The notes beneath the pieces are model-generated. The model had not been told where the DNA came from. It worked only from the letters and a program-made list of their open reading frames with translations, and searched no databases. From IMG/VR virus record IMGVR_UViG_3300010885_080481: 64,000 bases of DNA; one strand, 5' to 3'. Positions 1 through 29,288 of this stretch are shown in pieces. Position 1 is the stretch's first letter; each line of letters opens with the position of its first letter. The position numbers and the translations under genes are program-made. This DNA comes from a virus. Taxonomy: Duplodnaviria > Caudoviricetes.

Positions 1-2
1 CA

Positions 3-644
3 ATAGCCGATAAACCTATGATTTGTCACGTGTTGGAGTTAATGACTTCCGCAGGTATCGATGAAATAATGCTGATTACAGGGCCTGAAAACGCAGGCCA
101 AGTAATGGCTTTGTTGGGTTCTGGCGCAGAATATTCTTGTTCTTTGACTTACAGAATACAAGATAAAGCTAATGGCATCGCCGCCGCTTTAAATTTATGT
201 AAAGGATTTGTAGGAAATTCTAAATTTACGGTGATTTTAGGAGATAATATCTTTGGTGAATATTCAAAGTTGTCTTCACAAATAAAAGAGTTTTATCAAT
301 CAGACGAAGAATTTATGCTGTTCACAAAAAAGGTACCTGATCCTCATAGATTTGGAGTGCCTGTTTATGTAAATGGTAAAGTGATAGACATCATTGAAAA
401 GCCAAAGAACCCAAGTACAGATCGAGCCGTTGTCGGTCTTTATTGTTATTCTTCTAATGTTTTTGAAGTCATTGAAGGATTACAACCTTCAGCCCGCGGA
501 GAATATGAAATATCAGAAGTAAATTCATATTTGGTTAAGAATAAAAAAGGAAGTTTTTTTGACATAGAGTGTGGTTGGGTTGATGCAGGAACTCATGAGT
601 CTTATAAGAAAGCTAACGAAATGATTTGGGAGAAAGCAAAATGA
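3..644 (+). CDS. rmlA: Glucose-1-phosphate thymidylyltransferase (RmlA-like, short form), 5'-truncated by window edge
   Basis: Frame is open to the window edge (IADKPMI...). Motifs QDKANGIAAA, VILGDNIF, RFGV, IIEKP, SARGEYEISE, WVDAGT. Confidence 0.9.
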   Translation: MADKPMICHVLELMTSAGIDEIMLITGPENAGQVMALLGSGAEYSCSLTYRIQDKANGIAAALNLCKGFVGNSKFTVILGDNIFGEYSKLSSQIKEFYQSDEEFMLFTKKVPDPHRFGVPVYVNGKVIDIIEKPKNPSTDRAVVGLYCYSSNVFEVIEGLQPSARGEYEISEVNSYLVKNKKGSFFDIECGWVDAGTHESYKKANEMIWEKAK

Positions 645-1468
645 AAGTAATCATCGGATCAGGCAAAGTTGCTAATATCATAAAAAATGATGATGATGTT
701 ATTTTGCCTCACTCTCAAATAGAGATTAAAGATGAGACCTCGGTAGAAGAAGCTCTTTCTAAATTTCCAGCTGGTACAGTTGTCATCAATACTGCTGCAA
801 AAATTAATCTAGAATGGTGTGAAGAAAATAAAGAAGAATCTAGGTTGGTCAACGTTGATGGAGCTATAAACGTTGCTAAAGCTTGTAAAAAACATGGACA
901 TCACTTAGTTCATATAAGCAGTGGATGTATTTTTGATGGAATGGAAACTGAAAAAATATACACAGAAGTAGATGAACCTACACCTGCATCATGGTATGCA
1001 AAAACTAAGTCAGATGCTGATGCTGCAATCATGTCGCTGGGACATGACATGATAACTATAGTTCGTCCTAGACAACTAATATCAGCAATTCCTAACCCAA
1101 CTAACATGTTAACTAAGTTTATTAACTTGCAAAATGGTGATTTCATTGATTCGAAAAACTCTATTACTTGTATAGAGGATATGAAGTTAATGATTGATCA
1201 TCTAATTAATGGAAAGCATTACGGAATTTACAATCTTGCAAACATAGGGTGGCTCAGTCCTTATCAAATAGCCAATAAAGTAAAAAGCAGAATTTCAAGT
1301 AAACTTATCGTTAATAAAATAAACTACAAAGATTATTTGAAAAATATAAAAGTAAAAAGAGTTAACACTTTGTTGAGTGTTAATAAACTCATATCGACCG
1401 GATTTATGCCTAGGAATGCAATGGCCGCCTTAGAATGGTGTCTAGAAAATTATAGGAAAATAGCATGA
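641..1468 (+). CDS. rmlD: dTDP-4-dehydrorhamnose reductase-like SDR
   Basis: VINTAA, VNVDGA, HISSGCIFDG, YAKTK (YxxxK). Start moved to ATG 641, which overlaps the rmlA stop (ATGA). Confidence 0.8.
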   Translation: MKVIIGSGKVANIIKNDDDVILPHSQIEIKDETSVEEALSKFPAGTVVINTAAKINLEWCEENKEESRLVNVDGAINVAKACKKHGHHLVHISSGCIFDGMETEKIYTEVDEPTPASWYAKTKSDADAAIMSLGHDMITIVRPRQLISAIPNPTNMLTKFINLQNGDFIDSKNSITCIEDMKLMIDHLINGKHYGIYNLANIGWLSPYQIANKVKSRISSKLIVNKINYKDYLKNIKVKRVNTLLSVNKLISTGFMPRNAMAALEWCLENYRKIA

Positions 1469-2394
1469 ATGTAATCATTACGGGCGGGGCAGGATTCATA
1501 GGAGGTCACGCAGTCAAGCATTTTCAAAGTTTAGGAGATTCTGTTCTAAACGTAGACAAGCTTACGTATGCCAGCAAGAAAATCGATTTACAAGATTCAA
1601 ATTTTTTGCAACTGGATGTTTGTGAAACTGAACAGTTGATAGAACAAATAAAGAAACGTAAACCTGATTTTTTGATTCATTTTGCCGCAGAAACCCATGT
1701 AGATAACTCAATAGTTAACTGCGATGATTTTATTCACTCTAATGTAAAAGGGGTTGTTTCTGTCTTAAATGCATGTAAAGCAACAGGTACTAAGTTATGT
1801 CATATTTCCACCGACGAGGTATACGGCCCAGCTTATAATAGACCTTTTAACGAAGATGATTCTTTAAATCCTTTGAATCCTTATTCTTCTACAAAAGCTT
1901 CTGGCGATTTGCTGATTAAGTCTTATAGAAATACTTACGGATTAGAATACGTTATCGTTAGACCTTCTAACAACTATGGTCCTAATCAACACACTGAAAA
2001 GTTTATTCCCAAGTTGATTGATTGCTTGAAGAAAGGAGCTCAATTTCCTCTCTACGGAGCCGGTGATCAAGAAAGAGAGTGGACTTATGCAGAAGACACA
2101 GTTAAACTAATCAGGATGTTGTTAACTTCTAGGTTAACTGAATGGAATTCAGTTTATAACTTAAGTTCAGGAATAACATTTACAAACTTAGAAACAGCTA
2201 TGCATGTTTTAAAATCTTATAATTCGATTACGCAAAGCAACATTAAATTTGAAGACGTTATAAAGACTTCAAAAGACAGACCAGGTCATGATAGAAAATA
2301 CTGGATAACTGCTAACAAATTAAATTCCGTTGTAAAATTTGACTACACTGGATTTCAATCTGGGTTAGAAAAAACAATTTCTTCTTATGTCTAA
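1465..2394 (+). CDS. rmlB: dTDP-glucose 4,6-dehydratase
   Basis: TGGAGFIG, DKLTYA, HFAAETHVDNS, HISTDEVYG, NPYSSTKAS, NNYGPNQH, EKFIP, DRPGHDRKY. Confidence 0.92.
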   Translation: MNVIITGGAGFIGGHAVKHFQSLGDSVLNVDKLTYASKKIDLQDSNFLQLDVCETEQLIEQIKKRKPDFLIHFAAETHVDNSIVNCDDFIHSNVKGVVSVLNACKATGTKLCHISTDEVYGPAYNRPFNEDDSLNPLNPYSSTKASGDLLIKSYRNTYGLEYVIVRPSNNYGPNQHTEKFIPKLIDCLKKGAQFPLYGAGDQEREWTYAEDTVKLIRMLLTSRLTEWNSVYNLSSGITFTNLETAMHVLKSYNSITQSNIKFEDVIKTSKDRPGHDRKYWITANKLNSVVKFDYTGFQSGLEKTISSYV

Positions 2395-3127
2395 AAACAA
2401 CAAATTCGTGTTTGTGGCTCCCATGTATAACGCATCCGATACTTTACCTCGGATGCTTCATTCTATTTGTGGCCAATCTTACGAAAATTGGGAAATAGTA
2501 TTGGTCGACGATGTTTCTTCAAATGAGCATAAAGCAGCAGCATCAAAAACTTGTGAAGACTTTAAATCAATTTTAGAAGGAAAATATTCACAAAAAATTA
2601 AAGTTTTTTGGAATGATGACAAGAAATGGGAAGTTGCAAATGTCTTAAAAGGCATTTCTACATGTAAAGATGATGACATTGTCTGCAGGATTGATGCAGA
2701 TGATTGGTTGACAGACTTGGATTCTCTAGCCATTATTAATTTTGCATATAACACTTCTCAATGCGAAATTTTGTGGACTGCTCATAGGTGGAGCTTTTCT
2801 GATAAAAACATAAGCAACCATATGTCTGATGATGCGGATCCTTACAAACACCCTTGGGTCTCAAGCCATTTAAAAACTTTTAGAAAATATTTGCTTAATA
2901 ACGTAAAAGACGAAAATTACAGAGGTGAGGATGGCAATTATATACGAAGAGCTGGGGACCAAGCAATTTATTTGCCTGCTCTATATAACTCAAAAAAACG
3001 AAATTTCTTGCCAAGAGTGATGTATCACTATACTATAAAAGATGTTCCTGAAACTTATCAAACATCTGATGCTATATTCCAAAGAGATGAAGCATTGTTT
3101 TTAAGAAGTAGAGGTTATGTTAAATGA
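2387..3127 (+). CDS. Glycosyltransferase family 2 (GT-A)
   Basis: FVAPMYNA, IVLVDDVS, RIDADDWL, GDQAIYLP. Confidence 0.85.
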   Translation: MSKNNKFVFVAPMYNASDTLPRMLHSICGQSYENWEIVLVDDVSSNEHKAAASKTCEDFKSILEGKYSQKIKVFWNDDKKWEVANVLKGISTCKDDDIVCRIDADDWLTDLDSLAIINFAYNTSQCEILWTAHRWSFSDKNISNHMSDDADPYKHPWVSSHLKTFRKYLLNNVKDENYRGEDGNYIRRAGDQAIYLPALYNSKKRNFLPRVMYHYTIKDVPETYQTSDAIFQRDEALFLRSRGYVK

Positions 3128-3486
3128 ACGGTAAAAAGTTAGATGAATCTATCAGCAAATTATTAACTGTTAGATTGTCAAAAAGAAAAGGACAAAAGCT
3201 AGACAGAAGTACATGTATAGAAATTTATAATGATATATTTTTTACCTTATCAGAGGTCGTAAAAAGTGCAAGTACTCCATTGTCTAACGAATCAGTCAAT
3301 CTTTTATCTCAAATGTATTACGATTCAATAACAATAAATGATAATCAGGAGCTAGATCCTAACATCTTTACTCAAAGAGCATCATTAAAAAATATTGAAA
3401 CAAAAGAATTAACCCTAATGTCTGTTATGGTAAGTGGAACTCCTTTTGCAGTTCCTTTTATCCAAGAGGTTAAGCGGAGATCGTGA
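3124..3486 (+). CDS. Hypothetical protein (120 aa)
   Basis: ORF translationally coupled to both neighbours; no recognisable motif. Confidence 0.7.
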   Translation: MNGKKLDESISKLLTVRLSKRKGQKLDRSTCIEIYNDIFFTLSEVVKSASTPLSNESVNLLSQMYYDSITINDNQELDPNIFTQRASLKNIETKELTLMSVMVSGTPFAVPFIQEVKRRS

Positions 3487-4406
3487 AAATTCACTTAGAT
3501 AACGTTAACTTGAACTCCAGTTCAGGACCAAATTCTTTTGCAAAAAGATTGTCAAAAGGCCTAATAGAATCTGGACATGAGGTAGAATTACATGATGGTA
3601 GAAGTTCAGATGTTTCTTTGGTTTTTATTGAACCTAGCGGCAGACCCTTGGCAAAGAAAGTTGTTCAGCGTTTGGATGGAATCTGGTTTTCTCCAGAGGA
3701 ATTTGAGACCAAAAATAGCAATATAAAAAATCTATATCAAAACTCCAGTGGAGTGATTTGGCAATCCGAATTTGACAAAGAGATGGTCACGAAATGGTGG
3801 GGTATCCACAAAAATGGAGCTGTCATAAGAAATGGTATAGACATAAATCCAGTAAAAAAGTTTTCTATACCTGCTCTTGAACAAATAAGAAATCAATATG
3901 AGATGGTTTTTGTTTGTTCGGCTAATTGGCATCCACAAAAAAGGTTACTAGAAAATATAAATCTTTATAAGCATTTAAGAAAATTTTATAAATCAGCTGC
4001 TTTAATAGTGATGGGATCTAATCCTGTTCAAGTAGCCGATAATCACATTTTTTACGCGGGGCCACAACCTCATGAAGTTTGTTTAGAGGTATTTTCTGCT
4101 GCAAATTGGATGATTCATTTAGCGTGGCTTGATCATTGTCCTAATACGGTTGTGGAAGCACTATCACAAGGTACTCCCGTTATTTGTTCAGAACATGGTG
4201 GGACAAAAGAGTTAGTTAAAGATTTTGGAATCATCTTAAAAGAATCTAGAAGTTATAACTACGAATTAACAAATTATGATAATCCCCCTGTTATGGATTA
4301 TTCTAACTTGAATAAACTTCCTAAAAAAAATGAACTAGGAAAGCATTTCGATATTTCTATACAAAGAACTCTACAAGATTATTTAGAATTTCTTAAAAGC
4401 TTATGA
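3483..4406 (+). CDS. Glycosyltransferase family 4-like (GT-B)
   Basis: SGPNSFA, IRNGID, CSANWHPQKRL, DHCPNTVVEALSQGTPVICS (E-x7-E-like motif). GTG start. Confidence 0.85.
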   Translation: MKIHLDNVNLNSSSGPNSFAKRLSKGLIESGHEVELHDGRSSDVSLVFIEPSGRPLAKKVVQRLDGIWFSPEEFETKNSNIKNLYQNSSGVIWQSEFDKEMVTKWWGIHKNGAVIRNGIDINPVKKFSIPALEQIRNQYEMVFVCSANWHPQKRLLENINLYKHLRKFYKSAALIVMGSNPVQVADNHIFYAGPQPHEVCLEVFSAANWMIHLAWLDHCPNTVVEALSQGTPVICSEHGGTKELVKDFGIILKESRSYNYELTNYDNPPVMDYSNLNKLPKKNELGKHFDISIQRTLQDYLEFLKSL

Positions 4407-4735
4407 AAAAAGTAGAAAAAGGTTGGGGTTATGAACTTTGGATTCATAATGATGAAAAGTATTGCGGAAAATTATTATTCTTTAACAAGGGCAAAAAGTG
4501 TAGCTTGCATTATCATAAATTAAAGCATGAAACTTTTTACGTTCAATTAGGATCATTAAAATGTAAGTTCATCGATGGATCTAATGAAGATAACGTCATT
4601 TTAAATGCTGGAGATTCTAAAGAAATTCATCAAGGATTGATCCACCAAATGGAAGCATTAGAAGATACAGTCATGTTTGAATTTTCTACACAACACTTTG
4701 ATGAAGACAGTTATAGAATCCAAAAAGGTGATTAA
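4403..4735 (+). CDS. Cupin-fold sugar isomerase/epimerase-like protein
   Basis: KGWGYE, SLHYHKLKHETFYV and IHQMEALED cupin metal-binding motifs. Confidence 0.8.
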   Translation: MKKVEKGWGYELWIHNDEKYCGKLLFFNKGKKCSLHYHKLKHETFYVQLGSLKCKFIDGSNEDNVILNAGDSKEIHQGLIHQMEALEDTVMFEFSTQHFDEDSYRIQKGD

Positions 4736-5587
4736 ATGGGATTAGGCGGATATCTTACGTGGACAGCTGTTGCGAGAGAAATTTGTAATGCAACAGGATT
4801 AAATAAAGTTTTTCCATTTGAACAGCATAATGGTCCTTTGATTAAGACCATAAAAACTTCCATGTTTGAAAACAACCCTTATTTTCAGCAGGATTTTAAT
4901 AGTCGTTCACCGGCATTTCCTTTGCAGCTAAACAATCCTGCTACAAATTATTGTAAACAAGACACTCACGAAAAAGCTGTTCATAGGTATGATAAACACA
5001 TCATCGAACAAATTTGCGAATTTTATGGAATAAAAAATCCAAAGTTAAAATGTGAAATTTATTTTTCTGATGAGGAAAAGAAATTTGCTTTAGATGTGTT
5101 GTCTATTCATTCTTTGTCTACAAACAACTTTATTGTAATTGAACCTCAATCTAATGATGAATACACCGTTAACAAGCTTTATTCATTTAAAAAATGGCAA
5201 TTAGTAACAGACGAATTGGTTAAGCTAGGTTTTACTTTAGTTCAAGTAGGAAGAGAAAACAGGGGTAATCGATTAAAAAATGTGATTGATTTAACGGGAA
5301 AAACTAGCTTTAGAGAAGCCGCCGCAATTATAAAAAATTCCAGTTTGTTTATATCTTCAGAAGGTGGATTGATGCACGCCGCCAATGCTGTAGGCGTAAA
5401 AAGCGTGATTCTATTCACCGGATTTATTCATCCTAGAATGACAGGTTATCCTGAAAACAAAAACTTGTGGATAGGCAATGATCACGGTCCTTGTGGCATG
5501 AAAGTTCGTTGTCCTTCGTGCGCTAAGAATGTTGAAGATCATGATTACTTTGAAATTGTAGAAGCCGTCAAAGGTATAATCAAATGA
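4736..5587 (+). CDS. Glycosyltransferase family 9 (heptosyltransferase-like)
   Basis: N-terminal GLGG, KKWQ, DLTGKTSFREAAAII, FISSEGGLMHAANAVG, C-terminal Cys cluster (PCGMKVRCPSC). Adjacent to heptose genes. Confidence 0.85.
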   Translation: MGLGGYLTWTAVAREICNATGLNKVFPFEQHNGPLIKTIKTSMFENNPYFQQDFNSRSPAFPLQLNNPATNYCKQDTHEKAVHRYDKHIIEQICEFYGIKNPKLKCEIYFSDEEKKFALDVLSIHSLSTNNFIVIEPQSNDEYTVNKLYSFKKWQLVTDELVKLGFTLVQVGRENRGNRLKNVIDLTGKTSFREAAAIIKNSSLFISSEGGLMHAANAVGVKSVILFTGFIHPRMTGYPENKNLWIGNDHGPCGMKVRCPSCAKNVEDHDYFEIVEAVKGIIK

Positions 5588-6504
5588 GTATTTTAGTAAC
5601 AGGTGCAGCAGGATTTGTCGGGTCTAACATTGTAAAAAGACTTAATGATGTAGGTCACTACGATATTTATTTGGTTGATTCTATCAACGACAAAAATGAA
5701 AAAAACATTAAAAATGTTAAATACAAAGATCTTATAAGCAAAGAATCTTTTGATGCTTCCACTCTTGAAAAACTTAAAGAAATAAAAGTTGTATTTCATC
5801 AAGGCGCAATTACCGACACTACTTTTAATAATGAAATAGAGATGATGAGAGTGAACTACGATTTAAGCGTAATGATTTTCAATCACTGCGCTTTTAATAA
5901 TTGTAGCATGATTTATGCTTCATCAGCAGCGGTATATGGAATAGGTGATAATGGGTTTTCTGAAAATTCTTTTTGCGAAAACCCATTAAATGTTTATGCT
6001 GAATCTAAACTAAGATTCGATAATTACGTTAGAAGTTCAAAAGTAAATAACCAAGTTGTGGGGTTACGTTACTTCAACGTATTCGGAAAAAACGAAGACC
6101 ACAAATTGAAGATGGCTTCTCCAATAAACCAATTTTATAGACAAGCAAAGAGTATAGAAAAGGTAAGGGTTTTTGAAGGAAGCCAAAATTTTAAAAGAGA
6201 TTTTATTTGTGTAGACGACGTAGTGGACGTCAATATGTTTTTTTACGAAAATAAAAACATATCTGGAATTTTTAACTGCGGAACAGGACAAACTGCAACT
6301 TTTCAAGACGCAGCAGATATGGTGTCAAACCAGTTGAATGTCCCAATAGAAGAAATACCATTTCCAGATATTTTGAAAGGCAAGTATCAATCATACACCT
6401 GCGCTGATTTAACATCTTTAAGATCTGTCGGGTACAAAAAAGAATTTACGTCTTTTAAAAATGCTGCTTTTGATTATATAGACTTTATGAAAAATTCAGA
6501 GTGA
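5584..6504 (+). CDS. hldD: ADP-L-glycero-D-manno-heptose 6-epimerase
   Basis: VTGAAGFVGSN, FHQGAITDTT, YASSAAVYG, PLNVYAESK, LRYFNVFG, EDHK..MAS, RDFICVDDV, GKYQSYTCADL. Confidence 0.92.
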   Translation: MSILVTGAAGFVGSNIVKRLNDVGHYDIYLVDSINDKNEKNIKNVKYKDLISKESFDASTLEKLKEIKVVFHQGAITDTTFNNEIEMMRVNYDLSVMIFNHCAFNNCSMIYASSAAVYGIGDNGFSENSFCENPLNVYAESKLRFDNYVRSSKVNNQVVGLRYFNVFGKNEDHKLKMASPINQFYRQAKSIEKVRVFEGSQNFKRDFICVDDVVDVNMFFYENKNISGIFNCGTGQTATFQDAADMVSNQLNVPIEEIPFPDILKGKYQSYTCADLTSLRSVGYKKEFTSFKNAAFDYIDFMKNSE

Positions 6505-10847: not shown

Positions 10848-10850
10848 AAA

Positions 10851-13452: not shown

Positions 13453-13455
13453 ATT

Positions 13456-14223: not shown

Positions 14224-14224
14224 C

Positions 14225-16071: not shown

Positions 16072-16097
16072 TTAAAACTAAAATATAAAATTTAATT

Positions 16098-16877: not shown

Positions 16878-16892
16878 GTTAAAGGACAAAAT

Positions 16893-17531: not shown

Positions 17532-18568
17532 AAACTTGTCTTGTAACTGGAGCAGCTGGGTTAATTGGGTCAGAAGTAGCTAGATACTTCCTTGATCTTG
17601 GATGTAAGGTCGTCGGCGTTGACAACAACATGAGAAAATGGTTCTTCGGTCCCAGTGGCGACACCGAACATGTTGCGGAATCTTTGTTAAATAATGTAAA
17701 CTATTTTCATGAAAGTTGCGACATAAGAGACAGAGCCGAAATTGAAAGAATCTTTAAACAAAAGAAACCTGATTTCATCGTCCATGCCGCCGCTCAACCT
17801 TCTCACGATTTGGCTGCAAAAATACCTTACGAAGATTTTCATACAAATGCAGTAGGTACCTTGAATTTGTTAGAATCAACAAGGCAATTTTGTAAAGATT
17901 CGCCATTCATCCAAGTCAGCACAAATAAGGTTTACGGCGACACGCCTAATAGGCTTAAGCTGGTAGAAAAAGATACACGTTACGATTATTTTGAAAAAGA
18001 TTTGTACGAAGGTATCGATGAAACGATGTCGATAGATCAGACTACTCATTCTTTGTTCGGAGCATCAAAAACAGCAGGAGATCTACTAGCACAAGAATAT
18101 GGTAGGTATTTCAACATGCCAGTTGGCGTGTTTAGAGGAGGATGTCTAACGGGTCCTCAGCATGCCGGTGTCGAATTACACGGATTTTTATCGTATATTG
18201 TGAAATGTGCAGTACAGAATAAACCATACACAATTTTTGGGTATAAAGGGAAACAAGTTAGAGATCAAATACACTCTTACGATGTGTGCACAGCCTTCTA
18301 CGAATTTATAAAATCGCCACGTGCGGGTGAAGTCTATAATATCGGAGGTTGTCGCGACAATAGTGCTTCTATCTTGGAGATTATTCATGTCTTAAAAGAC
18401 ATGGGTTATGATTTGAAATTTTCTATTTCAGATACACCTCGAATGGGTGATCACATTTGTTACATCACTAACATGTCCAAATTCAAATCACACTTTCCAG
18501 CTTGGAAACACGAAAAAGATTTGAACACAACAATTAAAGAGATTGTAGAATCTTCCAAAATTAAATGA
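17528..18568 (+). CDS. CDP-paratose 2-epimerase (RfbE/Tyv)-like extended SDR
   Basis: VTGAAGLIG, HAAAQPSHD, STNKVYGD, HSLFGASK, FRGGCLTGP, GKQVRDQIH, RMGDHICY. Start moved to ATG 17528 (ATGA overlap). Confidence 0.82.
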   Translation: MKTCLVTGAAGLIGSEVARYFLDLGCKVVGVDNNMRKWFFGPSGDTEHVAESLLNNVNYFHESCDIRDRAEIERIFKQKKPDFIVHAAAQPSHDLAAKIPYEDFHTNAVGTLNLLESTRQFCKDSPFIQVSTNKVYGDTPNRLKLVEKDTRYDYFEKDLYEGIDETMSIDQTTHSLFGASKTAGDLLAQEYGRYFNMPVGVFRGGCLTGPQHAGVELHGFLSYIVKCAVQNKPYTIFGYKGKQVRDQIHSYDVCTAFYEFIKSPRAGEVYNIGGCRDNSASILEIIHVLKDMGYDLKFSISDTPRMGDHICYITNMSKFKSHFPAWKHEKDLNTTIKEIVESSKIK

Positions 18569-19503
18569 AAAAAGTATCCTTTGGAATAGTCAACTGTAAC
18601 CGGCTTTTCTATCTTAGAAGTTGTTTAGAGTCTTTGTTGGACACCACATCAGGTTACGAAAATAAAGAGTTCTTTGTAGTAGATAATGCATCTGTCGAAT
18701 CAGGGACGGAAGAGTACCTAAAGAACATAGAATCTAGAGGCGTAACTGTCATTAGAAAAAAAGAAAGAAATCCGGCAAATGAATTTGCAATTGGATTAAA
18801 TTCAATTATTTCTGAAGCCTCTGGTGATTATGTTTGTTTGTTACAAGGTGACATGCAGTTCGTGCTTCCTGATTGGCTGAATGACATCATCAGTTTTTAT
18901 GAAAAGAACCTTGACATCGTTGGAAGCGTTATGTTGGATGCTCAAAGAAGAATCACGCATGATTCTCATCAAATTGTCAAGTTTTCTCAGGACAGACATC
19001 CTACGTTTTGCAAGAATATATTCTATGCAGACGTGTCTAGAGATCCAATCAGCCCCGCTGCCGACGCCATTTTTAGCAGAAAAGTAATAGAACAAATCGC
19101 TCCCTGGAGTGAGAGAAATGTGAACCATGAAGGAAGTCTAGATTCAGAGAATGAAATGCGTTATAGGGTTCTTAGAATGATGAAGGAAGGTAGCATACCG
19201 CAGTATACAACGGCGTTATCATCTGTTCCTCAAGCTATTGCAATTTACACGGACCCGCGCGGGACGCAAGGTCGAGTCCGAGGAAATAAAAGGTACGGTC
19301 AGTACTGGCCCGCAAAAGATGCTTCAGGTTGGAAATACTATGAGTATATAAATGAGCATCAGTTTGATTTGTCAAAGGTAAATTCGATAGAAGAAGTGGC
19401 AAATCCCATTGGATTTGCGAAGTTTCTTGATGAAAAAGGTAACTGGTTAAAGAACCCGATTAGACCGGAATCAGCATCAACAGAAGATTGGACAGAACTG
19501 TAA
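18565..19503 (+). CDS. Glycosyltransferase family 2
   Basis: GIVNCNR, VVDNASVESGT, GDYVCLLQGD. Confidence 0.8.
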   Translation: MKKVSFGIVNCNRLFYLRSCLESLLDTTSGYENKEFFVVDNASVESGTEEYLKNIESRGVTVIRKKERNPANEFAIGLNSIISEASGDYVCLLQGDMQFVLPDWLNDIISFYEKNLDIVGSVMLDAQRRITHDSHQIVKFSQDRHPTFCKNIFYADVSRDPISPAADAIFSRKVIEQIAPWSERNVNHEGSLDSENEMRYRVLRMMKEGSIPQYTTALSSVPQAIAIYTDPRGTQGRVRGNKRYGQYWPAKDASGWKYYEYINEHQFDLSKVNSIEEVANPIGFAKFLDEKGNWLKNPIRPESASTEDWTEL

Positions 19504-19539
19504 AACAATCATCAAACTGAGTATATAGTCATACTTCAT

Positions 19540-20457
19540 ATGAATAATTCATCAATTGCAGTTATTGGTCAAGGTTTCGTAGGGGGTTCTCTCACAACTG
19601 TCTTCTCAGAAAGAGGCTTCAACGTACTGGTATACGATAAGGCAGGTAAGGTCTCACCTGGTGCACACGATTATCGACCTGACTCTCTAAAAAGTCTTGT
19701 TAATTTTGCCGAAGGATCTGTCGTAGGATTTTCCAAAGTTTATTTCGTGTGTCTTCCAACACCAATGTATGAGGATGGAAGTGCTGACCTCAGCATTGTT
19801 GAGGGTGTACTAACAGAGCTTTCGCAGATCCCGGGCGAGAGGATTGCAGTAGTAAAGTCCACCATTCCACCTGGCTCAACTGAGAGATGGAATAAAAAGT
19901 TTGCAGAAACAGGTCTTCGTGTTGTTTTCAATCCTGAGTTTTTGACAGAGGCCAACGCTCTGGATGATATGCGAAACCAAAACAGGATCGTCCTAGGCGG
20001 ACCTCGTCCGTACATCAACACTGTGAAGCAGGTATTCCAGACGGCATTCCCAAAGGTGCCGCTTGTAAAGACTTCTTCGACCACTGCCGAGATGGTGAAG
20101 TATGTCACAAACAACTTCCTGACTGTAAAGGTGGCCTTTGCAAATGAGATGTTCCAGGTCTGCGAAGCCCTAGATAAATCCGGACTAAATGTGGATTATG
20201 ATAAGGTAATTGAATATGCTAAGTATGATTCTAGGTTAGGCTCCAGCCACTGGAGTGTACCTGGACCGGATGGCCAACCTGGGTTCGGGGGTCACTGTTT
20301 CCCGAAGGATGTGAATGCAATGATTGATGTGGCAAAGACGCTGGGCGTGAAACCGACAGTTCTAAAGTCCGCATGGGAAAAGAACCTTGAGGTACGATCT
20401 GACAAGGATTGGGAGAAGATGGCAGGTCGTGCAGTTTCTAAAAAACCGAAGGGTTGA
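19540..20457 (+). CDS. ugd: UDP-glucose/GDP-mannose dehydrogenase family protein, short form lacking the C-terminal domain
   Basis: IGQGFVG, FVCLPTP, VKSTIPPG, FNPEFLTE, AEMVKY..N.FL..KVAFANE, GFGGHCFPKD (catalytic Cys). Confidence 0.88.
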   Translation: MNNSSIAVIGQGFVGGSLTTVFSERGFNVLVYDKAGKVSPGAHDYRPDSLKSLVNFAEGSVVGFSKVYFVCLPTPMYEDGSADLSIVEGVLTELSQIPGERIAVVKSTIPPGSTERWNKKFAETGLRVVFNPEFLTEANALDDMRNQNRIVLGGPRPYINTVKQVFQTAFPKVPLVKTSSTTAEMVKYVTNNFLTVKVAFANEMFQVCEALDKSGLNVDYDKVIEYAKYDSRLGSSHWSVPGPDGQPGFGGHCFPKDVNAMIDVAKTLGVKPTVLKSAWEKNLEVRSDKDWEKMAGRAVSKKPKG

Positions 20458-20492
20458 TGAACTAATATGGTGACATAAGTTACCATATAGCA

Positions 20493-21308
20493 ATGCAAGA
20501 AAATAACTCCTTCCAAACTCTACCTACGGGAAAACCCCACGTTTCTTTCTCCGAGGTAAAGTTATGGAAGGAGTGTTCATTTAGACACCACCTCATCCAC
20601 ATCAAAAAGATTGACCTATCGAAACCTTCTCCCGTACTTGACTTTGGTACCGCAGTTCATGCATCATGCGAAAAATATCTGCTGACTCGTGAGATGGATC
20701 CGCAGGTTGCTTTTGATCATATGGATGCAGCTTGGAAGAAACACGAAGGTAATCCTGATTTCTCTCCTGCATCACTAGAAAAAGCCAAGATCGAAGTATC
20801 ACAGATACTTGCTGAGGTGCCTCAGTTCCTAGACAGGGAATTTCCTGAGTGGCAAGTCGTTGATGCTGAGCACCAACTATATGAGGCAGTTGAAGGTCAT
20901 CCTCATGCCTTCAAGGGTTTCATTGACGGTGTTATCAAGGCTAAGGGCAAGAGAGGCGAGACGATCTATTGGATCCTCGACTGGAAGACAACAGTTCGTG
21001 GTTGGTTTCGCGAGAAAAGATCTGATGATATGGTCAAGGCACAGTTGGCACTATACAAAAACTATTGGTGCCAAAAGAATCCAGAAGTCCCATTCAAGGA
21101 TGTCAGGTGTGGATTCGTTTTGCTAAAGAAGTCGGCAAAGCCAGGCGAACATTGCGAGTTGTTTTCAGTTTCTCTAGGTGAGGTTCCTATAAAAAAATCT
21201 CTTAAAGTTGTTGGTAACATGTTGACTTCTGTAAAACGAGGTATTGCTATCAAGAATAGAGATGCTTGCACTTACTGTGAGTATAAAGGTACTGATCACT
21301 GCAAATAA
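20493..21308 (+). CDS. PD-(D/E)XK RecB/Cas4-like exonuclease with probable Fe-S cluster
   Basis: SFS...W..C, FGTAVH, E...FKGFIDG, ILDWKT, QLALY, C-terminal CTYC.....HC. Confidence 0.88.
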   Translation: MQENNSFQTLPTGKPHVSFSEVKLWKECSFRHHLIHIKKIDLSKPSPVLDFGTAVHASCEKYLLTREMDPQVAFDHMDAAWKKHEGNPDFSPASLEKAKIEVSQILAEVPQFLDREFPEWQVVDAEHQLYEAVEGHPHAFKGFIDGVIKAKGKRGETIYWILDWKTTVRGWFREKRSDDMVKAQLALYKNYWCQKNPEVPFKDVRCGFVLLKKSAKPGEHCELFSVSLGEVPIKKSLKVVGNMLTSVKRGIAIKNRDACTYCEYKGTDHCK

Positions 21309-21316
21309 TTTTTGAG

Positions 21317-21328
21317 TTGTGCTATAAA
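21317..21328 (+). promoter_or_regulatory. Candidate extended -10 element TTGTGCTATAAA
   Basis: Intergenic; TGnTATAAA. A near-identical 12-mer lies on the minus strand at 42999-43010, upstream of another non-structural gene. Confidence 0.35.
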
Positions 21329-21367
21329 ATTTATTACAACTTTTAGAAAGTTAGTAATATATCGTTG

Positions 21368-22612
21368 ATGCAGAAAAAAACGATTTTATTGCTTTCGGAC
21401 CACCCTTTATCCACTTCTGGAGTAGGAACCCAGGCCCGCTGGTTAATTCATGGATTAATTGCTACTGGCAAATATAAGTTCAAGTGCTTTGGTGGTGCAG
21501 TAAGACATGAAGACTACAGAACTGTAGTCGTAAATGAAGATTTTATCATAAAGCCGACTAACGGCTTTGGCGATAGAAACATGCTTCGACAAGTTCTTGC
21601 TACAGAACGACCGGATGTTCTAATGTTGTTTACAGATCCTAGATTTTTTATTTGGGCATGGGAAATGGAAGATGAAATTCATCAGATATGCCCGATAGCA
21701 TACAACCATCTGTGGGATAACGGACCATGGCCAGAATTCAATAGGGTTCTTTACGAATCGACTGATCTCGTTAACTGCATCAATTGGCCGACATATCAGA
21801 TGGTTAAAGAGAGATTTCCGGAAAAAACCAATTACATTCCACATGGTGTACCAAAAGAATTGTATTATCCAGTTTCTGATGAAGATTCTATCAAGTTTAA
21901 GAAAAAAGTTCTAGGAAATGATAGAGTCGATCACTTTGTTCCCATGTACGTTTCTAGGAACGCCCGCCGCAAGATGCCAAGCGATATTTTAGTTTCATGG
22001 AAACAATTTTTAGATGCGTTGCAAGCAAAGCATGGTCATAAGAAAGCAACATTGTTAATGCATACCGACCCGCTTGATCATGAAGGACCCAACCTTTATC
22101 ATGTAGTAGAGATGTTAGGAATAACTGATAACGTCAAGTTTTCAAAGAACAGGGTTGATTTTAATGAAATGAGAGAAATCTATGCAGCTTGTGACACGGT
22201 AGTGAATCGTAGTTCTAATGAAGGGTTCGGTCTTCCTACGTTGGAGGCAATGATGTGTGGTAAACCTATTATTGCAATAAAGACGGGCGGGTTGAGTCGT
22301 CAAGTGGAAGATATAGAGACTGGAGAACAATATGGGATTGCTTTAGAGCCTGATGTTAAGTCTCTTGTTGGAAATCAAATGGTGCCTTACATCTATGAAG
22401 ACTTGATATCTCATGAAAAGTTATCTAATGCATTCATGGAGATGTATGAATGGGGTCCTGAGAAAAGAAAGCAGGTTGGAAAACGTGCTTTAGAACATGC
22501 TCATAAAGATTATGATTTGAAAGAGATTGTTTCTTCTTGGGATAATTCTTTATCCAAATTAATTTCTGATTGGGAAAATCGACCGCAGCGATGGGAGGTC
22601 AAGTCTTTATGA
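21368..22612 (+). CDS. Glycosyltransferase family 4 (GT-B)
   Basis: SDHP...SGVG.Q, YIPHGV, SRNARRK, EGFGLPTLEAMMCGKPIIA. Confidence 0.9.
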   Translation: MQKKTILLLSDHPLSTSGVGTQARWLIHGLIATGKYKFKCFGGAVRHEDYRTVVVNEDFIIKPTNGFGDRNMLRQVLATERPDVLMLFTDPRFFIWAWEMEDEIHQICPIAYNHLWDNGPWPEFNRVLYESTDLVNCINWPTYQMVKERFPEKTNYIPHGVPKELYYPVSDEDSIKFKKKVLGNDRVDHFVPMYVSRNARRKMPSDILVSWKQFLDALQAKHGHKKATLLMHTDPLDHEGPNLYHVVEMLGITDNVKFSKNRVDFNEMREIYAACDTVVNRSSNEGFGLPTLEAMMCGKPIIAIKTGGLSRQVEDIETGEQYGIALEPDVKSLVGNQMVPYIYEDLISHEKLSNAFMEMYEWGPEKRKQVGKRALEHAHKDYDLKEIVSSWDNSLSKLISDWENRPQRWEVKSL

Positions 22613-23766
22613 AAAAAGTTGTTGTTAAAGGACCAGTACTGACGCAGTCAGGCTATGGGGTACATAGCAGGCAAGTCGCAAAATGGTTGCTGGATCAACC
22701 TCAAATTGAGGTAAAGTTTATGGCTACGCCATGGGGAGATACGCCTTGGATTTTAGACAAAAATTCCAATGATGGATTGGTAGCCAAAATAATGAATAAT
22801 ACAGTAGGTCCTGAATATAAGGCAGATGTCTCATTTCAAATACAGTTGCCTAATGAATGGGATTCAAAGCTAGCCACAGAAAATGTAGGTATCACAGCTG
22901 CTGTAGAGACAGATAGATCAAATCCAGAATGGGTTTCTGCTTGTAACAACATGAGTGTTGTGGTGTTTCCATCTGAACATGCCAAAAAGAGCATCACAAA
23001 TGCAGGAGAGCTAACTACAAAAAGTTTTGTGATACCTGAATCATATGCAGAAGAGATAAGAAGAGAAAATGTTTTAGAACTACCAGAAATAACAACTGAC
23101 TTTAATTTTTTATTGTTTGGTCAGTTAACAGGTAATAATCCTTATAATGATAGAAAAAATCTTCTTTTTACTATAAAATGGATCTGCGAAGCTTTTAAAG
23201 ATGATCCTGATGTGGGAATAGTCCTGAAAACTAATTCAGGAAGAAATACCAGGATTGATAGAAACTTGGTGTCAAAAGTTATCAGCACTGTTCTTAGTGA
23301 AGTTCGGAAAGGTCCATATCCTAAAGTACATTTAGTTCATGGAGAGATGAGCGATCTTGATGTGGCAGGGTTGTACAGAAGTCCAAAAATTAAAGCATTG
23401 GTCTCCTTGACAAGAGGAGAAGGATATGGATTGCCTATACTTGAAGCTGCTGCATCAGGATTACCAACCATAGTCACAGGCTGGTCTGGTCACACTGAAT
23501 TTTTGAAAGACATAAAGTTTGTTTCTGTGGATTATAATCTTACGCAAGTACATCCTTCTAGAATCGATGGTAAGATCTTTATGCCAACAGCTAAGTGGGC
23601 AGAACCTATCGAGCAAGATTTTAAAAAGAAAATTTTGAAGTTTAAGTCATCATCTTCAGTTCCTAAGAAGTGGGCAGTTGAAGGTTCGTTGCACATCCAA
23701 GAGAAGTATTCTTTTAATGAAATTTCAAAGATGTATAGTCAACTATTAGGTTCATACTTGCAATGA
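22609..23766 (+). CDS. Glycosyltransferase family 4 (GT-B)
   Basis: GPVLTQSGYG, RKN, TRGEGYGLPILEAAASGLP..TGWSGH.EF. Start moved to ATG 22609 (ATGA overlap). Confidence 0.9.
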   Translation: MKKVVVKGPVLTQSGYGVHSRQVAKWLLDQPQIEVKFMATPWGDTPWILDKNSNDGLVAKIMNNTVGPEYKADVSFQIQLPNEWDSKLATENVGITAAVETDRSNPEWVSACNNMSVVVFPSEHAKKSITNAGELTTKSFVIPESYAEEIRRENVLELPEITTDFNFLLFGQLTGNNPYNDRKNLLFTIKWICEAFKDDPDVGIVLKTNSGRNTRIDRNLVSKVISTVLSEVRKGPYPKVHLVHGEMSDLDVAGLYRSPKIKALVSLTRGEGYGLPILEAAASGLPTIVTGWSGHTEFLKDIKFVSVDYNLTQVHPSRIDGKIFMPTAKWAEPIEQDFKKKILKFKSSSSVPKKWAVEGSLHIQEKYSFNEISKMYSQLLGSYLQ

Positions 23767-24842: not shown

Positions 24843-24858
24843 TTTTTAAGGGTAACTT

Positions 24859-25233: not shown

Positions 25234-25234
25234 A

Positions 25235-26734: not shown

Positions 26735-26737
26735 ACT

Positions 26738-29242: not shown

Positions 29243-29246
29243 AAAT

Positions 29247-29269
29247 AAAAAGGCGGACCGTCTTTTTTT
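29247..29269 (+). terminator. Candidate intrinsic terminator
   Basis: AAAAAGGCG-GAC-CGTCTTTTTTT: stem with one G.U pair, then a T7 tract, right after the 29242 stop. Confidence 0.55.
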
Positions 29270-29276
29270 GCTTTCG

Positions 29277-29283: not shown

Positions 29284-29288
29284 ATCGA

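What the first reader, a model, noticed from the sequence alone, without database searches (positions are those of the whole stretch)
1..23766. ~24-kb all-soluble glycan factory in a myophage, using up to five nucleotide-sugar classes
Seen: 27 tightly packed genes including 9 clear and 3 tentative glycosyltransferases, plus enzymes resembling dTDP (RmlA/B/D), ADP (HldD/E), GDP (3,5-epimerase), CDP (RfbE-like) and UDP (Ugd) sugar pathways. They are contiguous with a late sigma factor and baseplate genes. No Wzx/Wzy/Wzz, ABC transporter or polytopic WecA/WbaP-type initiating transferase is visible. Established: O-antigen and capsule loci need lipid-carrier and export components, whereas giant viruses glycosylate virion proteins with soluble enzymes. 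Inference: the glycan is built in the cytoplasm directly on phage proteins (a virion glycan coat), not exported as host surface polysaccharide.
Basis: partly seen in the sequence, partly recalled or inferred. Interest (0 to 1): 0.8.

Follow-up and report, generated by a model that had tools for sequence, protein, structure and literature searches.

The report
Large sugar-building gene cluster in jumbo phage
An uncultured freshwater jumbo phage carries a 26-kb block of 29 genes that make unusual sugars and join them into a glycan without any export machinery; such clusters are known in other large phages, and it is still unproven whether the glycan coats the virus particle or alters the host surface.

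Summary
Window 1-23766 has 28 tightly packed + strand ORFs: 9 glycosyltransferases (GTs) above Pfam cut-offs, 3 tentative GT-A-like proteins, and enzymes whose best matches are RmlA/B/D, HldD/HldE, GDP-mannose 3,5-epimerase, CDP-tyvelose 2-epimerase and an N-terminal Ugd. The cluster starts 2.0 kb upstream with a soluble 643-aa GT2, giving 29 genes over 25.8 kb.

No polytopic protein lies in the cluster. There are no Wzx, Wzy, WecA, WbaP or ABC-2 genes in it, in the 6.5 kb upstream, or in three 205-278 kb relatives.

The phage is a far-T4-like freshwater jumbo myophage. All 17 relatives keep PDDEXK-GT4-GT4-gp55. The closest keep the 5' Rml block but carry a different centre, so the locus has a swappable cassette.

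The inference of a virion glycan coat is only partly supported. LPS-core and O-antigen GTs are also soluble, and the host could supply carrier and export. Homologous clusters in T4-like cyanophages are published as "LPS" clusters.

My odds: virion-protein glycosylation about 0.45, host envelope remodelling about 0.3, DNA glycans about 0.07. This is a large new member of a known kind. This scan has noted many candidate phage virion-glycosylation cassettes on other DNA.

The parts
1..4406 (+). Conserved 5' block. RmlA-like nucleotidyltransferase (1-644; the gene starts 79 nt before the window), RmlD-like reductase (626-1468), RmlB-like 4,6-dehydratase (1465-2394), GT2 (2387-3127), unknown 120-aa protein (3124-3486) and GT4 (3483-4406). 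A 643-aa soluble GT2 precedes it outside the window (L001:6530-8461).
   Evidence: Pfam, NCBIfam and upstream contig L001. The block is 72-81% identical in protein to the 278-kb relative L020.
4403..8263 (+). Heptose module in the variable centre. Small cupin (4403-4735), GT9 heptosyltransferase-like protein (4736-5587), HldD ADP-heptose 6-epimerase (5584-6504), HldE-type adenylyltransferase (6501-6923), HldE-type PfkB kinase (6862-7659) and a HAD phosphatase (7580-8263, likely true start about 7643).
   Evidence: Pfam. NCBIfam: HldD passes its equivalog cut-off; rfaE domains II and I are the best hits but fall below their cut-offs; the HAD is beta-phosphoglucomutase-type. No GmhA or RmlC was found. 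The module is absent from relative L020.
8260..16071 (+). Variable centre, continued. NodU/CmcH-type carbamoyltransferase (8260-9903), GT4 (9900-10847), tentative GT2 (10851-11666), Glyco_trans_1_2 (11663-12652), tentative GT8-like (12649-13452), tentative GT-A (13456-14223), GDP-mannose 3,5-epimerase-like SDR (14225-15253) and a weak methyltransferase-like protein (15250-16071).
   Evidence: Pfam, NCBIfam, PDB sequence search, atlas look-alikes. A mosaic relative, L035, shares most of these genes at 45-79% identity with gene-level swaps. The epimerase is 59-62% identical to homologues in T4-like cyanophages.
16098..19503 (+). Semi-conserved block. GT2 (16098-16877), O-methyltransferase of the Methyltransf_24 type (16893-17531), CDP-tyvelose 2-epimerase-like SDR (17486-18568) and GT2 (18565-19503).
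   Evidence: Pfam and PDB 1orr at E 6e-41. Shared at 71-77% with relatives L004, L005, L016 and L035, but not with L003 or L020.
19540..24050 (+). Conserved 3' block. Two-domain Ugd-like dehydrogenase lacking the C-terminal domain (19540-20457), PD-(D/E)XK nuclease (20493-21308), GT4c (21365-22612), GT4d (22570-23766) and a 95-aa protein with an N-terminal hydrophobic helix (23763-24050).
   Evidence: Pfam and PHROGs. GT4c/GT4d are present in all 17 related loci. The nuclease-GT4c-GT4d trio also occurs in Flavobacterium phage immuto and Microcystis phage Mel-JY01. The GT4c model has pLDDT 95.6 and a generic GT4 fold.
24060..31614 (+). Phage backbone directly downstream. gp55-like late sigma factor (24060-24842), three unknown proteins, gp25-like (29268-29756) and gp6-like (29773-31614) baseplate wedge proteins.
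   Evidence: PHROGs. Synteny with all relatives.
45595..53987 (+). Context: candidate glycan acceptors and a protein-directed transferase. Collagen-like fibre with repeated [10 protein letters not shown] nonamers (45595-46986), a fusion with methyltransferase, GT2 and TPR domains (47082-49343; its N-terminal region reads GT2-like by eye, without a Pfam match), a YadA-head-like fibre (49388-51712), a fibre/wedge-like protein (51731-52981) and a second Thr-rich collagen (53019-53987).
   Evidence: Translations, PHROGs and Pfam. GXY counts are 40 triplets with 26 Thr at Y, and 57 triplets with 27 Thr at Y. The only PDB match outside the TPR region is GmaR, E 1.5e-4. The fusion was not found in relatives G001-G003.

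Best explanation
The locus is a phage-encoded, purely cytoplasmic glycan assembly line. It makes or tailors several activated sugars: a dTDP-6-deoxyhexose, ADP-heptose that is probably carbamoylated, a GDP-L-galactose or L-gulose type sugar, a 2-epimerised NDP-hexose, and O-methylated residues. Ten to thirteen soluble glycosyltransferases then join them.

My preferred reading is that the glycan is attached directly to the phage's own virion proteins before or during assembly. Candidate acceptors are the Thr-rich collagen-like fibres, other fibres, and possibly capsid or sheath decoration domains. This would give the particle a strain-specific sugar coat.

Shown: gene content, solubility, absence of export genes, presence in every related contig examined, and cassette-like variation. 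Inferred: the sugars made, the acceptor, and the timing of expression.
For: Gene content and solubility.

No lipid-carrier initiating enzyme, flippase, polymerase or ABC exporter lies in the cluster, in the 6.5 kb upstream, or in three 205-278 kb relatives.

The cluster behaves like a core part of the lineage, not a sporadic accessory:
- GT4c (21365-22612) and GT4d (22570-23766) sit next to gp55 in 17 of 17 related loci.
- Every relative with enough upstream sequence carries sugar genes there.

The nuclease-GT4c-GT4d trio with adjacent variable sugar genes recurs in cultured phages of different host phyla: Flavobacterium phage immuto and Microcystis phage Mel-JY01. Rhodothermus phage RM378 has GT4c. 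This fits a phage-intrinsic acceptor better than one host's envelope glycan.

At least 15 of the 150 best GT4c representatives are about 570-910 aa long with a split match at about residue 284. The four I scanned (P0004, P0005, P0011, P0019) carry an intein there, next to the invariant EGFGL motif. This is typical of essential phage genes.

The centre is swapped or mosaic between relatives, independently of backbone similarity. The clade-specific fibril glycan clusters of Mimivirus behave the same way (PMC9614988).

The same phage encodes Thr-rich collagen-like fibres beside a GT2+TPR fusion whose only PDB match outside the TPR region is the flagellin O-GlcNAc transferase GmaR.

Virion glycosylation by phage-encoded soluble glycosyltransferases is experimentally established for mycobacteriophages (Freeman et al. 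2023, cited in PMC11256854 and PMC12582341).
Against: There is no direct evidence for any acceptor.

Soluble or peripheral glycosyltransferases are also what LPS-core and O-antigen loci contain. A GT9 enzyme, an ADP-heptose pathway and a carbamoyltransferase together are classic LPS inner-core features (established knowledge).

Homologous genes sit in cyanophage clusters that the literature reads as host-surface modification (PMC7824862).

The fibre-module GT fusion is absent from the three large relatives that still carry the cluster.

No poly-Thr C-terminal tags occur on the window's virion proteins.

The GT4c fold is generic and does not reveal an acceptor.

Expression timing is unknown.
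Confidence: 0.45

Rival explanations
1. Host envelope remodelling. The phage enzymes act at the inner face of the host membrane on host lipid A-core or on undecaprenyl-phosphate-linked intermediates. The host's own initiating transferase, flippase or ABC transporter, ligase and Lpt machinery then export the altered LPS or capsule. The benefit would be to block superinfection or to alter recognition of infected cells. This is the published interpretation of cyanophage and pelagiphage 'LPS' clusters.
For: The cluster holds a GT9 heptosyltransferase-like enzyme, HldD/HldE and a carbamoyltransferase, the hallmarks of LPS inner-core chemistry.

GmhA and RmlC are missing, so the pathway depends on host metabolism.

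The GDP-mannose 3,5-epimerase-like protein (14225-15253) is 59-62% identical, and HldD 37-38% identical, to genes in the sugar clusters of T4-like cyanophages such as S-SSM7 and S-SCSM2R. The literature interprets those clusters as host O-antigen or capsule modification (PMC7824862 section 3.4.10; PMC7029224; PMC12801897).

Conserved flanks with a variable centre are also the architecture of bacterial O-antigen loci.
Against: No known phage route to surface glycan modification is present: no GtrA/B/C-like membrane proteins, no initiating transferase, no flippase.

The cluster is present in every relative examined rather than sporadically.

The GT4c (21365-22612) / GT4d (22570-23766) core is shared by phages of hosts with very different envelopes.

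GT4c homologues carry inteins, like essential phage genes.

The host-surface function has never been demonstrated for any such phage cluster, as far as the papers read here show.
Confidence: 0.3
2. DNA hypermodification. Some or all of the transferases, above all the conserved GT4c (21365-22612) / GT4d (22570-23766) pair beside the nuclease, extend sugars on hydroxymethylated pyrimidines in phage DNA. This would protect the DNA from host nucleases.
For: Phage glycosyltransferases related to LPS enzymes put mono- to trisaccharides, including heptose, on 5hmC (bioRxiv 10.1101/2023.12.21.572611).

The order nuclease-GT-gp55 parallels T4's 46/47 - alpha-gt - 55.

In RM378 and Mel-JY01 the GT4c homologue lies among DNA-metabolism genes.

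A thymidylate-synthase-family homologue is present in all three large relatives.
Against: The lineage has a separate compact module about 90 kb away, of the type associated with DNA sugar modification: DnaE, a GT-B-like protein, two SDR epimerases, a ThyS homologue, TK and dCMP deaminase (note e1-5319061 reports the same for the window's own genome).

No ThyS or TET-type enzyme lies in or near the cluster.

Thirteen transferases and five sugar classes go far beyond any DNA glycan described in that preprint.

GT4c and GT4d show no sequence similarity to T4 alpha-gt, and alpha-gt is not among the top 50 structural matches.
Confidence: 0.07
3. Another product. The cluster could make a soluble or secreted glycoside or secondary metabolite, or glycosylate host cytoplasmic proteins as a takeover mechanism.
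For: Iyer et al. propose a secondary-metabolite role for the carbamoyltransferase-, HAD- and methyltransferase-containing clusters of jumbo cyanophages (PMC7824862). No acceptor is identifiable here.
Against: The cluster has no aglycone-building enzymes: no NRPS or PKS, halogenase or 2OG oxygenase. Ten to thirteen transferases suggest an oligo- or polysaccharide rather than a decorated small molecule.
Confidence: 0.1

Closest known systems
'LPS' or cell-wall-modification gene clusters of T4-like cyanophages and pelagimyophages (P-SSM2, S-SSM7, S-SCSM2R; Iyer et al. 2021 PMC7824862; PMC7029224; PMC12801897)
   Same: The enzyme repertoire matches: several SDR epimerases or dehydratases, a cupin, a PfkB kinase, a HIGH-type nucleotidyltransferase, a HAD phosphatase, a carbamoyltransferase, methyltransferases, Ugd and many glycosyltransferases of several families. 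These clusters also lack export genes, vary between related phages, and lie near tail and baseplate genes. There is direct homology: the GDP-mannose 3,5-epimerase-like protein is 59-62% identical and HldD 37-38% identical.
   Different: This cluster is about twice as large: 29 genes over 25.8 kb against about 12 kb in S-SSM7. It has 10 clear and 3 tentative transferases in one block; 13 in a whole genome was called the highest number for a marine phage (PMC12801897). It sits in a different, far-T4 freshwater jumbo lineage. It is present in every relative examined, with conserved flanks and a swapped centre, whereas the cyanophage clusters are described as sporadic. The function of the cyanophage clusters is itself untested.
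Virion glycosylation of mycobacteriophages (Che8, Corndog, Myrna; Freeman et al. 2023, cited in PMC11256854 and PMC12582341)
   Same: Soluble phage-encoded glycosyltransferases, sometimes with sugar-tailoring enzymes and methyltransferases, glycosylate capsid and tail proteins in the cytoplasm. No export machinery is involved.
   Different: Those cassettes have 2-4 genes in 50-70 kb siphophages of Actinobacteria. No sequence relationship was tested here. No acceptor tags of the poly-Thr C-terminal type, a lead from other notes of this scan, were found on this window's virion proteins.
Clade-specific fibril glycan gene clusters of Mimivirus and relatives, and the CroV 38-kb cluster (PMC9614988)
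   Same: They are large, at 6-33 genes. They are virus-encoded, soluble and bacterial-like, with nucleotide-sugar pathways (rhamnose, 4-amino-6-deoxy sugars), several transferases and methyltransferases. Their content differs between clades. They decorate virion fibrils.
   Different: Those are eukaryotic giant viruses with genes under individual promoters. Here the host is a bacterium and the acceptor is not shown.
Collagen-like glycoprotein BclA of the Bacillus anthracis exosporium (named in PMC9614988) and Listeria GmaR, a GT2+TPR flagellin O-GlcNAc transferase (PDB 22ao)
   Same: The phage has collagen-like fibres with GPT-type triplets rich in Thr at the Y position, next to a soluble GT2+TPR enzyme. 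Rhamnose-type (rml) genes lie in the same genome.
   Different: The match to GmaR is weak (E 1.5e-4 over about 90 residues). That BclA is glycosylated on Thr in its collagen region is my own knowledge, not tested here. The fusion is absent from the large relatives.
Bacterial LPS inner-core (waa) loci
   Same: Both contain a GT9 enzyme, ADP-heptose synthesis, GT4 and GT8-like transferases, all without transmembrane helices. A carbamoyltransferase suggests carbamoyl-heptose, as I recall for Pseudomonas core.
   Different: There is no Kdo transferase, no core kinases and no WaaL ligase (one search finds no Wzy_C or WaaL family match in the relatives). GmhA is missing. The GT9 protein is short (283 aa) and scores only 21-31 bits against every heptosyltransferase model.

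Membership tests
Wzx/Wzy-dependent O-antigen or capsule locus | A polytopic initiating phosphoglycosyltransferase (WecA/MraY type PF00953, or WbaP/PglC type PF02397) | tested here: not met
   None appears among the cluster's Pfam hits. The hydropathy scan finds no membrane-spanning protein. Three 205-278 kb relatives have no match.
Wzx/Wzy-dependent O-antigen or capsule locus | Wzx flippase (PF01943) and Wzy polymerase or WaaL ligase (PF04932) | tested here: not met
   Neither is in the cluster or in the 6.5 kb upstream. The three relatives have no match. The window's own full genome could not be searched.
ABC-transporter-dependent polysaccharide locus | Wzm-type ABC-2 membrane protein (PF01061) with an ATPase | tested here: not met
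   None is in the cluster. The three relatives have no match at E <= 0.01.
Synthase-dependent polysaccharide system | A polytopic GT2 synthase that couples polymerisation to export | tested here: not met
   All GT2 proteins, including the 643-aa first gene, lack hydrophobic segments.
Gtr-type phage seroconversion (GtrA/GtrB/GtrC) | A small membrane flippase, a bactoprenol glucosyltransferase with C-terminal transmembrane helices, and a polytopic serotype-specific transferase | tested here: not met
   No membrane-spanning protein lies in the cluster apart from a 95-aa protein with one hydrophobic helix.
Phage 'LPS / cell-wall modification' sugar clusters of large T4-like phages (Iyer et al. 2021) | Co-located SDR epimerases, cupin, PfkB kinase, HIGH nucleotidyltransferase and several glycosyltransferase families, differing between related phages | tested here: met
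   All listed enzyme types are present. The locus varies between relatives. It shares homologues with S-SSM7 and S-SCSM2R. The description is in PMC7824862.
Phage virion glycosylation system | Glycan covalently attached to virion structural proteins | not testable with these tools
   This needs purified virions. Only indirect context is available: Thr-rich collagen fibres and a GmaR-like GT2+TPR fusion.
Phage virion glycosylation system | Soluble phage-encoded transferases located with or next to structural genes | tested here: met
   The cluster is contiguous and co-directional with gp55 and the baseplate genes. A further GT fusion lies inside the fibre module.
DNA sugar-hypermodification gene cluster (Pyle et al. 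preprint) | A glycosyltransferase next to a 5-methylpyrimidine dioxygenase or a thymidylate-synthase-type hydroxymethylase | tested here: not met
   Neither lies in the cluster or its flanks. In relative G001 the ThyS homologue, with its own GT-B-like gene and two SDRs, lies about 90 kb away.
[quoted passage not shown] | GmhA isomerase, HldE or HldA kinase, GmhB phosphatase, HldE or HldC adenylyltransferase and HldD epimerase | tested here: inconclusive
   HldD passes the equivalog cut-off. The kinase and adenylyltransferase are the best hits but fall below their cut-offs. The phosphatase is a HAD-IA beta-phosphoglucomutase type, not a GmhB type. No GmhA is in the cluster.
dTDP-L-rhamnose pathway (RmlABCD) | All four enzymes, including the RmlC 3,5-epimerase | tested here: not met
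   RmlA-, RmlB- and RmlD-like proteins are present, all below the equivalog cut-offs. No RmlC family match was found; there is only a 110-aa WbuC-like cupin in the variable centre. A 6-deoxy-D-hexose is therefore as likely as L-rhamnose.

The most novel reading that the evidence does not exclude
A whole lineage of freshwater jumbo phages builds a complex heteroglycan directly on its virion, on collagen-like fibres or on capsid and sheath decorations. The glycan would contain heptose, 6-deoxyhexose, L-galactose-type, carbamoylated and O-methylated sugars. Relatives exchange the central cassette of the locus, which would create phage 'serotypes', the bacterial-virus counterpart of Mimivirus fibril glycans. 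The conserved, intein-prone GT4 pair would be the priming enzymes.
Probability: 0.35. Interest if true: 0.75.

Novelty: new member of a known kind. Interest (0 to 1): 0.5.

Why it matters
Large sugar-building clusters have been known in big phages since the first cyanophage genomes. Their acceptor has never been determined; the usual reading, host O-antigen change, is an assumption.

This locus is one of the largest and most complete examples. It is present in every relative examined, it has a clear conserved-flank and swappable-centre design, and it is anchored on a glycosyltransferase pair shared with cultured phages: Flavobacterium phage immuto and Microcystis phage Mel-JY01. Those cultured relatives give a practical route to testing whether such clusters coat the virion, the host or the DNA.

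If virions are glycosylated, that would affect how phage adsorption, grazing, particle stability and antigenic diversity in lakes are understood.

Tried and rejected
- Megablast of the cluster and of the structural region against 50,697 phage records found no match. The phage has no close cultured relative.
- There is no tRNA or Rfam match in the window. The 0.53-GC stretch at 46-54 kb is not rRNA; it is collagen-like (Gly-X-Y) coding sequence.
- The T4 late promoter TATAAATA is not enriched (2 found against 4.05 expected in the window; 1 against 1.56 in L001). Sigma-70-like promoters and terminators are at chance level. No statement on expression timing is possible.
- No whole genome is held for the window. 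Exporters were therefore searched only in relatives and in 8.5 kb of upstream sequence.
- A genome-contig scan with HldD gave one MAG hit at 49% identity. It gives no host clue.
- PDB sequence searches with the three tentative transferases, the GT9 protein and the 643-aa GT2 gave nothing useful.
- GT4c and GT4d against T4 alpha-glucosyltransferase showed no similarity.
- The GT4c structure prediction and fold searches give a generic GT4 fold: MshA, chlorovirus B736L, HepE, BshA. The fold does not reveal the acceptor.
- I searched for poly-Thr C-terminal tags, a lead from other notes of this scan. None occurs on this window's virion proteins.
- No complex prediction was run, because I do not claim that any particular pair of proteins binds.

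Full report
**What is in the window**

All ORFs from position 1 to 42340 lie on the + strand. In 1-23766 there are 28 ORFs. Most overlap by a few bases. Only five gaps are 10 nt or longer, and the largest is 56 nt.

Pfam places nine proteins above the gathering cut-offs of glycosyltransferase families (GT2 x3, GT1/GT4 x4, Glyco_trans_1_2 x1, GT9 x1).

Three further proteins are tentative transferases:
- 10851-11666 matches GT2 at 18.2 bits, below the cut-off.
- 12649-13452 has a weak match to an LPS alpha-galactosyltransferase model.
- 13456-14223 has a weak TIGR04440 match.

Their protein-language-model neighbours are phage clusters carrying GT2, GT8 or Nucleotid_trans domains. They have no PDB sequence match.

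**Sugar pathways**

| Nucleotide class | Evidence |
|---|---|
| dTDP | RmlA-like (206-209 bits), RmlB-like (282 bits) and RmlD-like (99 bits) are best hits, all below NCBIfam equivalog cut-offs |
| ADP-heptose | HldD passes its cut-off (318.6 against 274.6); separate HldE-type adenylyltransferase and kinase ORFs are best hits below cut-off |
| GDP | 14225-15253 matches plant GDP-mannose 3,5-epimerase structures at E 8e-85 |
| CDP | 17486-18568 matches CDP-tyvelose 2-epimerase at E 6e-41, ahead of dTDP-glucose dehydratases |
| UDP | 19540-20457 passes the nucleotide-sugar dehydrogenase subfamily cut-off but covers only model positions 2-295 of 413 |

So 'up to five nucleotide-sugar classes' is a fair upper bound. 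The short dehydrogenase form is conserved in relatives.

Some steps are missing. There is no RmlC and no GmhA. The phosphatase is a beta-phosphoglucomutase-type HAD. No GDP- or CDP-forming nucleotidyltransferase is present. The locus also holds a NodU/CmcH-type carbamoyltransferase, one clear and one weak methyltransferase, a small cupin and a PD-(D/E)XK nuclease.

**Solubility and the missing machinery**

A Kyte-Doolittle scan (19-residue window, threshold 1.6) finds no hydrophobic segment in any cluster protein, with two exceptions:
- The N-terminal 21 residues of the ORF called from TTG 7580. The Pfam match and an in-frame ATG at about 7643 indicate these residues are not translated.
- The 95-aa protein at 23763-24050.

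A metagenome contig that is 100% identical to window 1-4952 supplies 8.5 kb of upstream sequence. The cluster starts there with a soluble 643-aa GT2 protein (L001:6530-8461). That gene faces a divergently transcribed block of unknown genes, ClpP, a helicase and PhoH. The whole locus is therefore 29 genes over 25,773 bp, with 10 clear and 3 tentative transferases.

No initiating transferase, flippase, polymerase or ABC exporter lies upstream. Three related phage records (278, 213 and 205 kb; the largest is 84% complete by CheckV) have no match to Wzx, WecA/MraY, WbaP/PglC, Wzy/WaaL or ABC-2 families. The same searches hit 10-14 of 14 control genomes. The window's own complete genome is not held.

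**What kind of phage**

PHROGs identify a gp55-like late sigma factor, gp25- and gp6-like baseplate wedge proteins, tail fibres, an endolysin and a 1,034-aa tail sheath. There is no nucleotide-level match to any of 50,697 phage records.

The sheath is at best 31% identical to that of Microcystis phage Mel-JY01. The next matches are an uncultured 484-kb phage, Rhodothermus phage RM378 and Flavobacterium phage immuto. Related IMG/VR contigs reach 278-282 kb.

The variable centre of the cluster occurs nearly identically in freshwater and lake metagenomes. Twenty listed runs from 12 studies hold at least part of it, including two that may be the source of this DNA; six runs hold half or more of its sampled words. 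This is a far-T4-like freshwater jumbo myophage with an unknown host.

**Comparative anatomy of the locus**

All 17 related loci keep GT4c - GT4d - small hydrophobic protein - gp55 - p124 - p499. GT4c is the transferase at 21365-22612 and GT4d the one at 22570-23766. The PD-(D/E)XK nuclease lies upstream of GT4c wherever the sequence reaches that far.

The closest backbone relatives (gp55 81%, nuclease 94%, GT4c 87% identical) also keep the 5' block at 72-81%. That block is GT2-643, RmlA, RmlD, RmlB, GT2, unknown-120 and GT4. Between the flanks, however, they carry a different set of genes, with two further transferases, an SDR, a DegT aminotransferase and a GNAT, which suggests a 4-acetamido-4,6-dideoxyhexose.

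A more distant relative (gp55 70% identical) shares ten of the window's centre genes at 45-79%. It has gene-level swaps: GT17 replaces Glyco_trans_1_2, there is a second carbamoyltransferase, and DegT+GNAT replaces the weak methyltransferase. A fourth arrangement exists in L037.

The locus is therefore always present but mosaic, and its content is uncoupled from backbone similarity. G+C is 0.34 in the 5' block and centre, against 0.38-0.42 for the neighbouring backbone.

**A deeply conserved core**

GT4c homologues (25-32% identity, 85-99% coverage) occur in the same cultured phages that match the sheath. The nuclease-GT4c-GT4d trio, followed by further transferases, an aminotransferase and methyltransferases, is conserved in Flavobacterium phage immuto and Microcystis phage Mel-JY01. 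A metagenomic relative at 37% identity has the same trio next to other sugar-tailoring genes.

An exhaustive profile search finds 215 representative clusters at E <= 1e-30. At least 15 of the best 150 are about 570-910 aa long with a split match. The four I scanned carry a Hint domain, with a LAGLIDADG domain in three of them. The insertion lies at about residue 284, directly before the invariant E286-G-F-G-L motif. Inteins normally lodge in essential replication or packaging genes, so GT4c behaves like a core gene.

Its predicted structure (pLDDT 95.6) is a generic retaining GT4 fold. The nearest structures are MshA, chlorovirus NY-2A B736L, HepE and BshA. The fold does not reveal the acceptor.

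**Possible acceptors in the same phage**

The 0.53-GC block at 45.6-54.0 kb encodes:
- two collagen-like fibres: 40 triplets with 26 Thr at the Y position, from repeated [10 protein letters not shown] nonamers, and 57 triplets with 27 Thr at Y;
- a YadA-head-like Ser/Thr-rich fibre;
- a 753-aa fusion containing a Methyltransf_24 domain, a GT2 domain and TPR repeats.

Outside the TPR region, the fusion's only PDB sequence match is Listeria GmaR, the GT2+TPR flagellin O-GlcNAc transferase (E 1.5e-4). This fits the separate note e1-5319032.

The fusion is not found in the three large relatives. One of them does carry a Thr-rich collagen, with 57 triplets and 32 Thr at Y. No virion protein in the window ends in a poly-Thr tag.

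**Weighing the explanations**

That is suggestive but not compelling. LPS-core and O-antigen transferases are also free of transmembrane helices, and a lytic phage can rely on host carrier lipid, MsbA or Wzx, and Lpt. A GT9 enzyme, ADP-heptose synthesis and a carbamoyltransferase together are typical LPS inner-core chemistry.

The kind of cluster is already described. Iyer et al. list the same enzyme set in jumbo cyanophages and read it as O-antigen or capsule diversification against superinfection (PMC7824862). Similar readings exist for pelagimyophages (PMC7029224) and for S-SCSM2R (PMC12801897). The homology is direct: the GDP-mannose 3,5-epimerase-like protein is 59-62% identical to genes in those cyanophage clusters. 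None of these papers shows the function experimentally.

Against the host reading and for a phage-intrinsic acceptor, I count four points:
- constant presence in the lineage;
- the conserved GT pair across phages of Bacteroidota and Cyanobacteria;
- the intein-bearing alleles;
- the fibre-associated GmaR-like enzyme.

There are also established precedents of soluble viral transferases glycosylating virions: mycobacteriophages (Freeman et al. 2023, via PMC11256854 and PMC12582341) and Mimivirus clade-specific clusters (PMC9614988).

A DNA-glycan role is a real but weaker rival. Phage transferases can put up to trisaccharides, including heptose, on 5hmC (preprint), and nuclease-GT-gp55 mirrors T4's 46/47 - alpha-gt - 55. 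However, the 278-kb relative has a separate compact module about 90 kb away: DnaE, a GT-B-like protein, two SDRs, a ThyS homologue, TK and dCMP deaminase. GT4c and GT4d also show no similarity to alpha-gt.

Adjacency to gp55 says nothing about late expression. In T4, gene 55 itself is expressed before late genes (established knowledge). No promoter motif, terminator or RNA data could settle the timing.

**Verdict**

| Reading | Odds |
|---|---|
| Virion-protein glycosylation | about 0.45 |
| Host envelope remodelling through host machinery | about 0.30 |
| DNA glycans | about 0.07 |
| Other | about 0.1 |

The locus is a very large new member of the known class of phage sugar-building clusters. 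Its useful new features are presence in every relative examined, the swappable centre, and the intein-prone GT4 pair shared with cultured phages. This scan has already noted many candidate virion-glycosylation cassettes in other phages. Those notes are leads, not support.

Noticed in passing
window 21365-22612 (GT4c) and homologues P0004, P0005, P0011, P0019: Many homologues of this glycosyltransferase carry an intein (Hint, with LAGLIDADG in three of the four scanned) inserted at about residue 284, directly before the invariant EGFGL motif. At least 15 of the 150 best representative clusters are lengthened in this way; four were scanned. The window's own copy has no intein. Inteins in a glycosyltransferase are unusual.
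   Followed up: partly
window 19540-20457: The Ugd-like nucleotide-sugar dehydrogenase lacks the whole C-terminal (UDP-binding) domain at 305 aa, against about 413 model positions. The short form is conserved at 67-80% identity in all relatives that have it, so it is probably functional in some other way rather than a pseudogene.
   Followed up: partly
window 20493-24842 compared with T4 (L039): The order recombination nuclease - glycosyltransferase(s) - gp55 parallels T4's 46/47 - alpha-glucosyltransferase - 55. The transferases share no detectable sequence similarity, and the transcription order is reversed.
   Followed up: yes
window 45595-53987: This 0.53-GC block sits in a 0.37-0.42-GC genome. 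It encodes two Thr-rich collagen-like fibres, a YadA-head-like fibre and a methyltransferase-GT2-TPR fusion. The fusion is absent from three large relatives, so the block looks like an exchangeable fibre module.
   Followed up: partly
L041 (G001:231000-243000): The 278-kb relative carries DnaE, an unknown protein, a GT-B-like protein, an SDR, two unknown proteins, a second SDR, a thymidylate-synthase homologue, thymidine kinase and dCMP deaminase. This is a compact candidate module for sugar modification of DNA pyrimidines. It matches note e1-5319061 for the window's own genome.
   Followed up: partly
window 58922-62026: The tail sheath protein is unusually long at 1,034 aa. It has a Ser/Thr-rich stretch around residues 310-345 (50% Ser+Thr in a 30-residue window) within a region that may be an extra surface domain.
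   Followed up: no
window 23763-24050: A 95-aa protein with one N-terminal hydrophobic helix is conserved between GT4d and gp55 in all 17 relatives (35-63% identical). Its function is unknown.
   Followed up: no
L001:6395-6529 (upstream of the first cluster gene): The AT-rich divergent intergenic region contains repeated AGATTTA / TCTAGAT-like words. It could be a regulatory site for the cluster. I did not analyse it further.
   Followed up: no
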